From the NCBI GenBank assembly GCA_045105515.1, contig JBGCDR010000218.1:1-10422 (forward strand): a DNA stretch of 10,422 nt, in the 5' to 3' direction. The stretch comes from Oligoflexales bacterium (lineage in GTDB: Bacteria; Bdellovibrionota_B; Oligoflexia; Oligoflexales; Bog-1112). The position numbers are program-made. Below, in pieces: positions 1 through 10,422 of the stretch (the stretch's first letter is position 1; each line of letters opens with the position of its first letter).

Positions 1-3000
1 TTCACTTGTCTTTCCGGTAACATGAAAATAAACATATCAAGCCCTCCCAGAATTACGTTTGGGATCAGCTTATCAATATTTACATAATAATCATATAAAA
101 TAATAATATTAGCTGGTTAAAAAATTAGACAACTCTAATTAGCCAAGGATGTTTGTCAGCGTGCAACATAAACTGCTGATACAAATTCTTTACACCTGCA
201 AAGCCCTCATTGACCTGTCTAGGAAATTTTCCAGTTAGTACATTAAGCACTTTATCAACCTTATCCAAAGATTCAGACTTTGCTGCGACTATTTTTTCTA
301 GACTTATGCTTAGTTTTGTCATTTAAACTACCAATTTAGTATATCAATCTCGCACCTAGAACTCTTATCGTCATATCCACACGAAAAAGTTACCCTGGTG
401 GCTTTTAATTTATATATACATAATGTTATGGGAACTATAAGATTCTCAATAAGATGCACGAAACTGGGTTTTTACCGACTACAATTTATAAAGGCCCCAT
501 AGATCTCCACATTCACTCCTCACATCCAATGGCTGAAAACGGGACCCAAACTCTTCCCGAAAATTAGATAGGTAGAAATTCCAACCCTGCTCTGATTTGA
601 TTTCTTGCGTATGATAATCAACCTCGATCACGAACAAAAACCTTGATACCCGTTTAAATTCATCATAGAGACTATTGCGGTCTTCATAAGGTATACGTTT
701 AATGACTGCAGAGGTAAAAATTAAATCGAAGTAATTATCTTCAAATGGAATCTTCATACCATCGTACAACCTAAACTCGCAACTAGGTACTTTATCACTC
801 GCTTCTTCAATAGACCTAGGATTAATATCAACTCCAAACCCTTCAACATCGGTAAATTCATTGCAAATGAAATTTAGTATCAAGCCATTATCGCAGCCAA
901 AATCTAAGATACGTTTTCGCTCCCAAATAACCTGAGCAAGTACCCTAGTAAAAGAAGCTACGGGAGCCTGATATCCGCATTCCTTATAGAAATTCCAAAC
1001 TTCACCCAGTTCTTGTGGGCTTGAATAGTCTTTTTCCAAATTTTTCTTCATTGTTTTATAATCTGATTTTTTCACTTTTAACAAGCCCAATCATCTAAAT
1101 GTATTACTGTTTTTTCCCTGCAACGATACCGCAATTTGCGAGATTAATCTATGGGATTTTTTCGCCAAGCTTCAAGAATTCAAGTTTCTCCGCCACCTGC
1201 GCAGCAACAATTTTATTGTGATCGAAAACAAAATCATGAGGGACTTCCTCAGAAGCTAAGTCTATATCTATATCTGGATAGGTTTCCTGCATTTGCTGGC
1301 AGAAATGTAAAGGTACATAAGGATCCTTATGAGAAAATATCAATGAGATCTTATCTGAATGGTAGTTTAGAAATTGATGGCATTCGTCATCAATTTTTCT
1401 GATAAATTTAATTTCATCCCAGGCAAGTGACAACACATTATTTATTAGCCTAAATTGATGGATATTATCTTCGAGAAGGTACTTGACTTCTTCAGACTGT
1501 CCGCAATACCATTTAAGAATTGACTCTCTTACCTTCTTTGGTAAAGCATGGACTAAACCAGCTAAGCCTTGCCTCAATATGGGTCGAGCTGACAAGCGAA
1601 TAGCTAAAGGTATTCCGATACGTAAGTGCTGAATAGTAGGAAACAATCCAATAAGTTTGAAGACTTTTAAATCCGGAACCCTAGCGAGGGATTTGAAACT
1701 AAGATATGAGCCAAGACTATGACTTAAGACCACAAGCTGTTTTACACTATTGGGAGGTAAACCTAAGCTTGTTGGATGACTTAAAACCAGGTTAAAAAAA
1801 TTTACTTTGTGATCTATTTGAGCTTCTAAACTCACTTCTTCAACTGAACAACTACCACAATGTCCTGCTTGGCTAAGACCTAGAACACCGACTCTCCCAC
1901 AAGATCGACTTAAGATATCATATAGAAATGGACGGTAAAAATGAATTATACCAGGATTCCCAGGAATGAAGATTAGCAGTTTTTCAAGTATCCCACCTTT
2001 AGGTAAGATACTTAAAACTTGTGTCGAAGTCTGTTTTTGACCTACCCTTACCTGATAAGTTTTTTCTATTAAACACATAAGCGAATAAGCTCCCTGAAAA
2101 AACTAGATCTATAATTAGTTTCTTATTTATTTACATGTTGAGTCTCACAATCATTGTACCAGCTAAATTTCCCTCATATTAAATTTGCTTTTGAATCTAC
2201 GTAAAAAAACCTAATATGTACAAAAATTATGGCAACTAAGCCTAGCTACTTTTATGAGTATTTTTCTTAATCATAGCACAGATTAAAAAGTCACACTTAA
2301 ATAAAAAAACCGATCAATAAGATATACTTATTGATCAAAGTAAAGATAGTTTTTGCCAAAATCCATCTAACACCATAAAAAATAACAAAAATGGAAAATA
2401 AGAAAAAATGTTATTCTCAAGATTTCGTATTATATAATCCTAAAACATATTGTTTATTACCATTAATATTAATAATATTATTTATAATAGACTTTGCTAA
2501 ATTAACAAACAAACATGAAATAATAGAGTTTTTTTTCGGTTTTTTAATGATTTTATTTTTTTGGTTGGGTATATAGGGTCGGCAGACGAGCCATAAATAT
2601 CTTAATCGATCAAAGGTTTGTTCAAGATCAAATCAATCTGCCTAATGAAGGAGTTTTACTAATGCAACTCTTCAGCCTATTATCTGCAATTTCTTTAACA
2701 TCAGCTTTCATCACACCTCAACCTGGGGTATATAAGACCAAGAATAGCTTTATAAAAAGAAACCCAGAACAAACTTTTTTTCATCAAAAACACAACAATA
2801 AATTTGATTCTCGATTGATCTTTAACCAACCTTTCCGTCCTGATGTAGGATTAAACTCTTTTTCTTCTTTTGAAGGAGAGTATTGGTTTAAGCGTTATGA
2901 TTCAGTTTTTGCAAGCCCTTACAGTGAGTATAGCCATATCATTCACATCATTGAAGGAGTTCTGCAAAAAAGATCTCTAAACACAGATGAAACCGCATAC

Positions 3001-9000: not shown

Positions 9001-10422
9001 ACGTTGCTGAAACCTATGACCGCTCTGTATATGTTCCAAAAGTGGAAGAACTCCCTTTAGAATTAGCACAGCTTATGCTTGAGCTGCTTAGGGAAGGTAC
9101 TCATAAATGATGGCTTCATTTTCAATCCCCTATACCCCTATCGGAGCTTGGCAGTGTTAAAGTCAGAACTAAAGGTGGCTCTATCCCAAAATCTAAGGGT
9201 ATTCTGGGAACATCATCGCAAATGATTCCCAGTCCCTGCTTTTGCAATGGTTGGGCCATGGAATCTAAGTATTTACCAAGCTTTATTCCCCAGATTTGTA
9301 GCCTTAGAAACTTCTTTATAAGGAAAGTCGGGGCTTTTATCCCCTTTTCTAAAGACATTTTTTCATAGACTGGAGCGAGCTTTGCAGAGCGGCCTATAGA
9401 CTCGAGCAAATGTCGCTGCATACAATGATAGTGAGGCTCTGATTCTATCTCTCTTATTGCGAGGATTACCGTATTTAATAATTCTGAATAACTGTTGCTA
9501 AGATTAGCATTAAGCGAACTAATCAAACCGTATGTATCTAAACTCTGTTTTGGATCACCATGTGGAACCAAGGAATCAGACAGACTCGGGCTTAGAGCCA
9601 TGGAAACAAATTCAGAGCACATCAATGGAACCCCTTGTTCTTGCCATAATTTTGCCCGCCAATCAAACCACTTAGCACTGACCCATGTCAAACGCTCAAA
9701 CCAAATAAGTGTATTTGAAACCTTCCTAGATGTACCTCCTGACTGCTGTGCATACAATTCACGCCTGTCTTTATTTAGATCAATCGCTTCTCTAAGATGT
9801 TTGGTAAAACAGTCTCGCTGTCCTGTTTCTGCATAACTTGAGCTCGCCAATACAAAATATAGATATAGAATAAATAACTTCATAAACTACCCATAAGTGA
9901 AAATCCCTTTCAAGAAGGATGTAAGAGAAGGTAGGGTGTATTCTATTTAAAATTAAGCATTCATCGTTCTACAACAAATTCATCAAAGCCTTTTAGCTTA
10001 TTTTCACTCACCTCAATGGAAACAATATTTTCCGACATCTGTGTTTTCAATTTACTTATAAATGCCTCTATTTCAGAGCGCTTCCCTTCCACCTCAAGCC
10101 ATACAGAACCATCAGGTTCATTCCGCACAAATCCAGCTACCGCATGTTCTTTCGCAATTTGAACGCTGGTAAAACGAAAACCAACTCCCTGAACTCTCCC
10201 TTTAAACTTATAAGAATGGTGGATAAACTCCAGCGCTTTCATCAATACTCCTCATACTTTATAAAGCTACCATATTCTTTCCTATATAGTGTCTGGTCGG
10301 AAACTAAATTCTTGCCTTTGCAACTCAGTTTTTTTTATCGCGGTTGAAATTAATTTTAAAAAATCTTCTTATTTTCCAGTGATAAGTGAAAAATACCATA
10401 TTTTCGGCAATTAAATATCTTC

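What a model noticed while it worked through the whole genome (the two positions that open the first line are those of the whole stretch)
2662..9110. Secreted proteins carry diatom-type bipartite plastid-targeting presequences (ASAFAP-like)
Eight families of secreted proteins have a signal peptide, Phe at +1 (mostly FxP/FxxP) and an acid-poor, S/T/P- and K/R/H-rich, fast-evolving extension ahead of the domain: the form of the import signal of diatom-type complex plastids. They are the tandem AAA g03524 and its VWA partner g03525 (here), RNase R g00958 (C53:8196-9968, two signal-like segments in tandem), RelA-like g01810, carrier g03316, S8 protease g01946 (C125:335-1675), DUF1826-like g03692 (C235:2334-3125) and orphan g01103 (C62:3964-5124). 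I predict that they are effectors addressed to the host plastid.
Evidence so far: Homologues keep F (one Y) at the site while the next 30 residues diverge to 18-40% identity, against 47-79% in the C-terminal 200 residues of five of six families scored. AAA 8 of 8 in its clade, RNase 3 of 3, S8 in G014 and a 31% homologue in another genus, g01103 3 of 3 plus G014, g03692 3 of 4 with an N-terminus, one each for VWA, RelA-like and carrier. Acidic residues after +1: 19 of 480 in 16 homologues, against 4.2 per 30 in 1107 predicted secreted proteins and 29 of 210 in the sister RNase clade. The second AAA paralogue g03649 and its homologue lack the F and have an acidic N-terminus. The genes are intron-free with bacterial RBS. 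Rules from PMC4329603 (matrix, calls 69-73) and PMC37 [...]
(Added by a program. Inside this text positions count along the whole contig: contig position 1 is position 1 of the stretch shown here. "Call 12" and the like, gene names such as g00115 and contig names such as C1 are that model's own, and its searches are not shown. The text may have been shortened before it was handed on; [...] marks where a part breaks off. The agent that wrote the report below was given it as the finding of a first reader that could run no searches.)

Follow-up and report, generated by a model that had tools for sequence, protein, structure and literature searches.

The report
Bacterial proteins carrying algal plastid addresses
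An uncultured, probably intracellular bacterium puts, on an ATP-driven protein machine and about a dozen other exported proteins, the kind of N-terminal address that diatoms and related algae use to send proteins into their chloroplast, which suggests, untested, that it delivers proteins into its host's chloroplast.

Summary
The midasin-like tandem AAA gene and its coupled VWA partner both begin with a 15-residue signal, Phe, Pro nearby, and a 48-50-residue acid-poor disordered extension. Nine AAA homologues down to 31-40% identity keep signal+Phe while the extension turns over; the paralogous AAA/VWA operon lacks it in both genes. New, partly independent test: the published diatom transit-peptide END motif (Leu-x|Met/Ala/Ser, then acidic) is present in 8 of 18 rule-defined genes (3.1 expected, p 0.003) but not enriched in controls. 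The genome belongs to an Oligoflexales family with ATP/ADP translocases (15 of 15 relatives) and a type II secretion system; a diatom plastid is abundant in all three runs holding it (one study). Against: genome-wide Phe-Pro linkage is not robust (18/83 vs 103/662 genes, p 0.10; similar in a free-living control), two of eight families fail in a homologue, no signal predictor or experiment was run, and host and route are unknown. Best reading (0.6): effectors addressed to a red-lineage plastid. Signal-plus-transit-peptide effectors are known for land plants; I found none for Phe-type plastids.

The parts
2648..2653 (+). Shine-Dalgarno site of the AAA gene
   Evidence: AAGGAG 8 nt before the ATG
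2662..2706 (+). AAA protein: 15-residue signal peptide without basic residue, ending T-S-A
   Evidence: chosen also by a +1-blind site model; 13-17 residues in nine homologues
2707..2856 (+). AAA protein: transit-peptide-like extension, F at +1, P at +4, 3 acidic residues in 50, ends L-N before S/A
   Evidence: 8-23 of 47 identical in close homologues against 559-599 of 662 in the AAA part
2857..4461 (+). AAA protein: all-helical N-terminal body, no named family
   Evidence: model pLDDT 77; no clear fold match
4462..6447 (+). two AAA+ modules with intact Walker A, Walker B and arginine-finger motifs, midasin-like
   Evidence: Pfam AAA_5, AAA_lid_7; midasin E 1.6e-87 against CbbQ 1.8e-11; motifs at 4606, 4927, 5683, 5887
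6430..6435 (+). Shine-Dalgarno site of the VWA gene, inside the AAA gene's 3' end; ATGA overlap at 6444-6447
6444..6488 (+). VWA protein: 15-residue signal peptide ending V-S-G
6489..6632 (+). VWA protein: transit-peptide-like extension, F at +1, P at +4, ends P-L-F
   Evidence: same start and P-L-F end in G001; about 25-30 residues shorter in the paralogue; residues 1-72 unstructured in the model
6633..7328 (+). VWA protein: N-terminal domain, weak zincin-like fold with the first His of HExxH replaced
   Evidence: VIA Z 6.0-6.9 to minigluzincins, model pLDDT 58: lead only
7329..8304 (+). VWA protein: acidic low-complexity repeat linker (21% D+E)
8595..8996 (+). VWA domain with DxSxS MIDAS motif at 8610
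   Evidence: Pfam VWA 718-851; weak match to midasin MIDAS 6qt8

Best explanation
The bacterium is an intracellular energy parasite or symbiont of an alga with a red-lineage plastid (most likely a diatom or other ochrophyte). A small set of its exported proteins has independently gained a host-type transit peptide behind the signal peptide: Phe at +1 for the Phe-reading import gates, a basic, acid-poor body, and a Leu-x|Met/Ala/Ser end for the stromal peptidase. The window's two proteins carry the address together because they must meet in the stroma as a split, midasin-like ATP-driven remodelling machine (ring of AAA modules plus a MIDAS adaptor on an acidic tether). Shown: the sequence features, their conservation, operon structure, translocases, T2SS. 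Inferred: export by Sec and T2SS, release into the lumen of the host ER/plastid ER (where the cleaved protein would look like a host precursor after ER entry), import, and the function in the stroma.
For: AAA: 8 of the 10 rows of a clade with SH-aLRT 99 have signal+F, plus P0040 that was not in the tree; the exceptions are the genome's own paralogue, whose sister P0015 has F, and a 721-aa protein without comparable N-terminus. Signal co-varies across both partners: F/F in the C218 operon of G000 and G001, neither in the C231 operon. Carrier: F, T, P and the -2 Leu are invariant in 4 of 4 while the rest of the extension is not. RNase: extension adds about 40 residues (G005) or 60-75 with a second signal (G000, G001) to the 88-91 of four plain exported sisters. 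Other genera carry it: G004 orphan, G005 RNase. Presequences share no sequence with each other. Cargo that needs ATP, GTP, RNA or an organelle membrane. Translocase family PF03219 in 15 of 15 family genomes, six near-full copies here; gsp cluster with two GspC and two GspD. Diatom plastid DNA deep in 3 of 3 holder runs. Candidate signals are shorter (p 0.0015) and more often uncharged, 7 of 14 vs 146 of 839.
Against: Gene-level F-P linkage 18/83 vs 103/662, p 0.10, and 4/15 vs 22/105 in 800 kb of a translocase-free relative; the smaller p values count sites and are inflated by x-F-A/S signal ends. F+1 proteins are not more acid-poor as a class (14/62 vs 138/784). Log-odds against the diatom matrix rank the T2SS secretin first. 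RelA-like homologue in G015 and C235 homologue in G001 have a signal but no F; the G001 orphan has F but 6 acidic residues; three of my extra candidates lose F in the homologues found. In the AAA family L-N-A/S abuts the first conserved domain residues and may be structural. Thresholds of the end-motif test were set by me after seeing the AAA alignment. Extensions (about 20-60) run longer than the 12-42 of T. pseudonana. Translocases also occur in free-living bacteria (PMC5381601, abstract). The diatom co-occurs in one study only and at no constant depth ratio.
Confidence: 0.6

Rival explanations
1. Variant inside the best explanation (about a quarter of its weight): the host is a red alga or glaucophyte with a primary plastid. 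The bacterial signal peptidase removes the signal, T2SS releases the protein to the cytosol and the exposed Phe-start transit peptide goes straight to the TOC pore.
For: Phe-based motif at the N-terminus of red-algal and glaucophyte transit peptides (PMC7038456 passages). Needs no ER step. Family members have signal+F-box-like proteins (G005, recognised by eye) that must act in a cytosol. Runs are labelled plant metagenome.
Against: RNase carries two signals in tandem before F/Y, as an ER route would need; end motif is the diatom/brown-algal one (no red-algal data there); short uncharged signals; carrier's nearest Atlas clusters are diatom proteins (0.88, lead only); diatom plastid in the runs.
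Confidence: 0.15
2. The extension is a bacterial-side propeptide, T2SS-related linker or disordered spacer; Phe and Pro reflect a signal-peptide style of this lineage and the resemblance to plastid signals is convergent.
For: No genome-wide enrichment at gene level; same F-P share in a free-living control; x-F-A/S is the commonest signal end in this genome; Phe is a generally conserved residue (2 of 4 non-candidate F+1 pairs identical); failures in homologues.
Against: Does not predict the end motif, the acid-to-basic switch at the domain border, joint gain/loss in both operon partners, or why ATP- and RNA-dependent cargo is exported; +1 is identical in only 8 of 32 signal-bearing orthologue pairs but kept in AAA at 31-40% identity.
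Confidence: 0.22
3. The extensions are host targeting signals, but for mitochondria (or the periplastid space), exposed after bacterial signal cleavage.
For: Basic, acid-poor N-termini suit mitochondria too; one candidate (C435:13329-14147) and its G001 homologue have an Arg-rich extension with Arg at -2 and no kept F; carrier fold is mitochondrial by origin.
Against: Pro at +3/+4, Asn/Gln/His-rich, few Arg; Leu, not Arg, at -2; periplastid proteins lack the Phe (PMC12136025 passages); ppGpp acts in plastids (PMC8252717 passages).
Confidence: 0.1
4. The genes are algal contamination of the bin, or algal genes acquired with their presequence that is now vestigial.
For: The bin does hold a diatom plastid fragment fused into C286; the carrier looks eukaryote-derived; origin of P0014-P0016, P0040 and P0041 could not be read.
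Against: SD sites, ATGA coupling, bacterial neighbours, synteny with G001, window GC 0.388 vs genome 0.383; only C286 has a low-GC block; RNase sisters in the same family lack the extension; extension turns over while its motifs are kept; other long hits of the AAA search were midasin-sized proteins.
Confidence: 0.05

Closest known systems
Bipartite plastid presequences of diatoms and other algae with complex red plastids (ASAFAP motif; PMC4329603 sections 5, 7, 11 and matrix; PMC3774753 passages)
   Same: Signal, F at +1, FxP/FxxP, acid-poor positive body, Leu at -2 of an M/A/S start followed by acids
   Different: Encoded by a bacterium with SD sites and operons; extensions longer and richer in N/Q/H, poorer in S/T; entry into the host ER route unknown; untested
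Las5315/SDE1 of Ca. Liberibacter asiaticus (PMC5808351 passages) and rust effectors CTP1-3 (bioRxiv 10.1101/019521 abstract)
   Same: Secretion signal followed by a host-like chloroplast transit peptide; fast-evolving, lineage-specific
   Different: Land-plant primary plastids, no Phe rule, two membranes; single effectors, not a two-gene ATPase machine or a set of unrelated families
Midasin/Rea1 (PDB 6or5, 5jcs) and MoxR-type AAA+/VWA pairs CbbQ-CbbO, NorQ-NorD, CobS-CobT
   Same: AAA_5 modules with midasin lid, acidic linker, MIDAS-bearing VWA domain; AAA gene followed by VWA gene
   Different: Two AAA modules per chain, not six or one; 540-residue novel helical N-domain; linker and VWA on a separate, exported protein; substrate unknown

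Membership tests
Diatom-type bipartite plastid presequence | N-terminal signal peptide called by SignalP | tested here: inconclusive
   SignalP not on hand; own heuristic and a +1-blind matrix place the site before F for AAA, orphan, C235, RelA-like; elsewhere for carrier and S8; VWA fell under that script's hydrophobicity bar
Diatom-type bipartite plastid presequence | F, W, Y or L at +1 | tested here: met
   AAA 9 homologues, VWA 2 of 2, carrier 4 of 4, S8 2 F and one L, RNase F, Y, F, orphan 3 of 3; not met in one homologue each of RelA-like and C235
Diatom-type bipartite plastid presequence | Transit score above 2 on the ASAFind matrix | tested here: met
   2.1-5.3 summed over +1..+20, but F alone gives 3.25, so the test does not discriminate; without +1 the AAA and VWA scores (0.8-2.0) overlap the background 0.95 +/- 0.30 (not needed). 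The scoring script itself could not be read
Diatom-type bipartite plastid presequence | Acid-poor, net positive transit peptide, disordered | tested here: met
   22 acids in 540 residues in 18 homologues; VWA residues 1-72 unstructured; one orphan homologue fails
Diatom-type bipartite plastid presequence | Stromal peptidase motif Leu at -2, M/A/S at +1, acidic after | tested here: met
   22 of 33 vs 7.0 expected; 8 of 18 rule-defined vs 3.1; absent by the rule in VWA (G after L-F in G000), RelA-like, C235, two RNases
Diatom-type bipartite plastid presequence | Phe-dependent import into the plastid in vivo | not testable with these tools
   needs reporter fusions
Midasin/Rea1 | Six AAA modules, long linker and MIDAS in one chain | tested here: not met
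   two modules; VWA on a separate gene
CbbQ/NorQ/CobS-type MoxR AAA+ with VWA partner | Single AAA module of about 270-330 aa matching the family model, adjacent VWA gene | tested here: not met
   adjacent VWA gene yes; tandem modules in 1261 aa; CobS and GvpN models far below cut-off; CbbQ E 1.8e-11 only
Intracellular energy parasite | Several NTT/TLC nucleotide translocases | tested here: met
   six matches under 1e-100 here; 15 of 15 family genomes match, only weak partial matches in 7 of 25 other order genomes; intracellular life itself not tested

The most novel reading that the evidence does not exclude
An undescribed family of Oligoflexales lives inside diatoms or related algae, probably in or against the plastid ER, and has repeatedly evolved complete host-type presequences to push its own proteins (a two-part midasin-like ATPase, a nuclease, a protease, a carrier, an alarmone synthase) across the membranes of the complex plastid; the same AAA family carries transit-peptide-like N-termini in other lineages as well, so it may be a widespread plastid-remodelling effector.
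Probability: 0.42. Interest if true: 0.92.

Novelty: new variant of a known kind. Interest (0 to 1): 0.78.

Why it matters
No bacterial protein is known to me, or found in my searches, that enters a four-membrane plastid. If true, it shows that a symbiont can invent the import signal thought to arise only after gene transfer to the host nucleus, offers a way to infer hosts of uncultured symbionts from N-termini, and names a bacterial control point on diatom photosynthesis. It is directly testable with routine reporter fusions in Phaeodactylum.

Tried and rejected
Genome-wide enrichment of F or F+P as proof: site-level p 0.0002-0.02 fell to 0.10 at gene level and was matched by the control genome; rejected as support. 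ASAFind log-odds ranking: top hit is the GspD secretin. A shared, shuffled presequence cassette: none. Bin chimerism by tetranucleotides: a gradient, not two populations. Plastid DNA integrated into the bacterium at C286: depth step of 10- to 150-fold and loose ends at 8500 show an assembly join. Scans for more candidates: 557 kb of G004 gave only the known orphan, 226 kb of G005 only the RNase, 249 kb of G001 none. Metagenome scans for AAA loci found nothing; no further VWA homologue; no further AAA genome in order or phylum above the cut-offs except weak G039 copies without signal. No relative found for four extra candidates or the carrier in the genomes searched. RNase tree does not resolve whether the G005 extension is independent. 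No fold for the AAA N-domain; Atlas blank for P0041; no solved relative of the RelA-like protein. No RNA holder listed. No VipB or VirB4-family match, one FlhA in a 91% complete genome. A recalled report of bacteria in the ER of the diatom Pinnularia was not found in the library. Complex prediction not run.
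Full report
What is in the window. 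Two coupled genes: a 1261-aa protein with two intact AAA+ modules (2662-6447) and an 888-aa protein with an acidic repeat linker and a MIDAS-type VWA domain (6444-9110), each behind AAGGAG and overlapping at ATGA. The AAA part is far closer to midasin (E 1.6e-87) than to CbbQ (1.8e-11) among solved structures. Its 540-residue N-domain models as helical with no clear fold match; the partner's N-domain is weakly zincin-like without the full metal motif. Both proteins start with a 15-residue signal-like segment, then F, P at +4 and a 48-50-residue extension with few acids. The window is contig C218 of a 6.29-Mb bin; the same-genus genome G001, whose record is titled Oligoflexales bacterium, has the same operon next to the same lipid-droplet hydrolase gene.

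The organism. PF03219 nucleotide translocases match 15 of 15 family genomes, six times under 1e-100 in this genome, and only weakly and partially in 7 of 25 genomes of other families; most family genomes are 1.8-4 Mb. Such transporters mark intracellular life but also occur in free-living bacteria (PMC5381601, abstract). A gsp cluster with GspC, C, D, D, E, F, G, H, K, N is present; the single FHIPEP protein is flagellar FlhA; VipB and VirB4 families were not found. Three runs of one study, labelled plant metagenome, hold the window. The first 8.5 kb of contig C286 are a plastid genome piece (psbE, ycf4, psaL, cbbX, ycf39, psaF and others; names partly by eye) whose PsaF is closest to PDB 6l4u and 8xls (that these are diatom structures is recalled). 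It is fused to the bacterial atp operon by misassembly: depth about 300, 20 and 110 against about 2, under 1 and 9, with loose ends at 8500. So a diatom is abundant where the bacterium was found; that is co-occurrence in one study, not a host assignment.

Conservation of the signal. A word search gave four homologues and a full HMMER scan four more distant ones at 31-40% identity in the alignment. Nine, the query included, have a 13-17-residue signal, F and 0-2 acids in the next 30 residues. In a quick tree of 28 rows (longer proteins and those with under 500 aligned residues left out) a clade with SH-aLRT 99 holds ten rows: eight with the signal, the genome's own paralogue without it, whose sister has it, and one 721-aa protein without comparable N-terminus. 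Residues 17-63 are 8-23 of 47 identical in the close homologues against 559-599 of about 662 in the AAA part. The VWA partner has the signal in G000 and G001 and lacks it in the paralogous operon, as does its AAA gene. Other families: carrier 4 of 4; S8 F in G001 with the catalytic domain starting right behind the extension, L in a 30% homologue of G005, and ordinary signals in most of the other S8 proteins seen; orphan F in G004 and G001, the latter acidic; RNase with two signals then F or Y in G000 and G001, one signal then F in G005, plain signals in four sisters and none in one. Failures: RelA-like in G015, C235 protein in G001. For comparison +1 was identical in 8 of 32 signal-bearing G000-G001 orthologue pairs, three candidates included.

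Genome-wide tests. With my own gene calls (5377) and site rules, F at +1 was linked to P at +3/+4 at site level (15/62 vs 74/784; 18/83 vs 114/996). That link is inflated, because this genome's signals often end x-F-A/S, and it fell to p 0.10 with one row per gene; 800 kb of G073, which has no translocase match, gave 4/15 vs 22/105. F+1 proteins are not acid-poor as a class.

A third feature. PMC3774753 (passages) reports for diatoms and brown algae a stromal cleavage motif with Leu at -2, Met/Ala/Ser at +1 and acids behind. Under shuffles that keep charged positions, it occurs in 4 of the eight named genes (1.4 expected), 5 of 7 further candidates (1.5), 13 of 18 homologues (4.1), 8 of 15 distant lineages (2.95), but in 26 of 303 background proteins (30.6). 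Without hand picking: 8 of 18 F+P genes (3.1 expected, p 0.003), 2 of 27 with other hydrophobic +1 residues, 15 of 103 non-F genes (11.3), 16 of 83 F genes regardless of P (11.8, p 0.12), and 0 of 4 in the control genome. Caveats: I set the window after seeing the AAA alignment, homologues are related, and in the AAA family the motif touches the first conserved residues of the domain.

How it most likely works. Shown: features, operon, lifestyle markers. Inferred: Sec export, cleavage before F, T2SS release. For a four-membrane plastid the cleaved protein must be inside the host ER lumen, which works if the bacterium sits in or against the plastid ER; otherwise a second signal is needed, as the RNase has, or the short uncharged signals act at the host ER after an export route I could not name. 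For a red alga the cytosol would do (PMC7038456, passages). In the stroma three AAA chains would form a six-module ring and use the VWA protein as adaptor to pull on a host complex, by analogy with midasin and CbbQ-CbbO (established knowledge; substrate unknown). The other cargo fits a plastid: bacterial RelA sent to the Phaeodactylum plastid lowers photosynthesis (PMC8252717, passages); a plastid carrier of mitochondrial type is reported in diatoms (PMC12645085, search listing only); the carrier's nearest Atlas clusters are mostly diatom proteins at 0.88, a lead only.

Relation to what is known. Signal-plus-transit-peptide effectors exist for land-plant chloroplasts: Las5315 (PMC5808351, passages) and rust CTP1 (10.1101/019521, abstract). 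Searches for bacterial effectors with bipartite or ASAFAP signals, and for intracellular Oligoflexia, returned none (open-access library only, read as listings). Oligoflexales abundance follows algal symbiont density in an anemone (PMC10701089, passages), which concerns other, unlinked sequences. Rules came from PMC4329603 (sections 5, 7, 11 and the matrix supplement; its script file could not be read) and PMC12136025 (passages). The scan's own notes held nothing on this signal; two notes on the translocase and on an exported RNase agree.

Verdict. Real feature, new variant of a known kind of mimicry, untested. Confidence 0.6 that these are import signals for a red-lineage plastid, about 0.42-0.45 for a diatom-type complex plastid. 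Interest 0.78.

Noticed in passing
G000:C286:1-8500 (L138): Diatom-type plastid genome piece fused by misassembly, inside atpA, to the bacterium's atp operon; the bin's atpA is a hybrid.
   Followed up: yes
G000:C435:13329-14147 (L022) and G001:C315 (L136): Signal peptide followed by an Arg-rich, acid-free extension with Arg at -2 of a likely cleavage site: looks like a mitochondrial presequence; could also be read as F/L-x-x-P.
   Followed up: partly
G000 C168:960-1436, C199:118-2907, C114:3753-4472, C63:10010-10930, C450:129-440, C239:13382-14419: Six further orphan genes with signal, F, P and acid-poor extension; four have the end motif; homologues found for two lack the F.
   Followed up: partly
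Proteins P0041, P0028, P0032, P0033: Distant AAA homologues from GC-richer sources: P0041 has signal, F-Q-P and a P-L-Q|M end; the other three have long acid-poor N-termini without signal, like primary-plastid transit peptides. Origin unread.
   Followed up: partly
G005 L125 and L116: Several signal-bearing proteins with an F-box-like motif (by eye): Sec-exported cargo that would act in a eukaryotic cytosol.
   Followed up: no
G005:C245 (L056): S8 protease with signal, L-P-rich basic extension and a second hydrophobic stretch before the catalytic domain, like a thylakoid-lumen signal.
   Followed up: no
G000:C36:40232-57715 (L158): Type II secretion cluster with duplicated GspC and GspD.
   Followed up: partly
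window 1149-2078 (-): Lipid-droplet-associated hydrolase (PF10230), a mostly eukaryotic family, divergent from the AAA operon here and in G001.
   Followed up: no
G000:C63:10010-10930 family: At least seven paralogous signal-bearing orphan proteins in this genome with relatives in G001 and G005; only one has the F-type N-terminus.
   Followed up: partly
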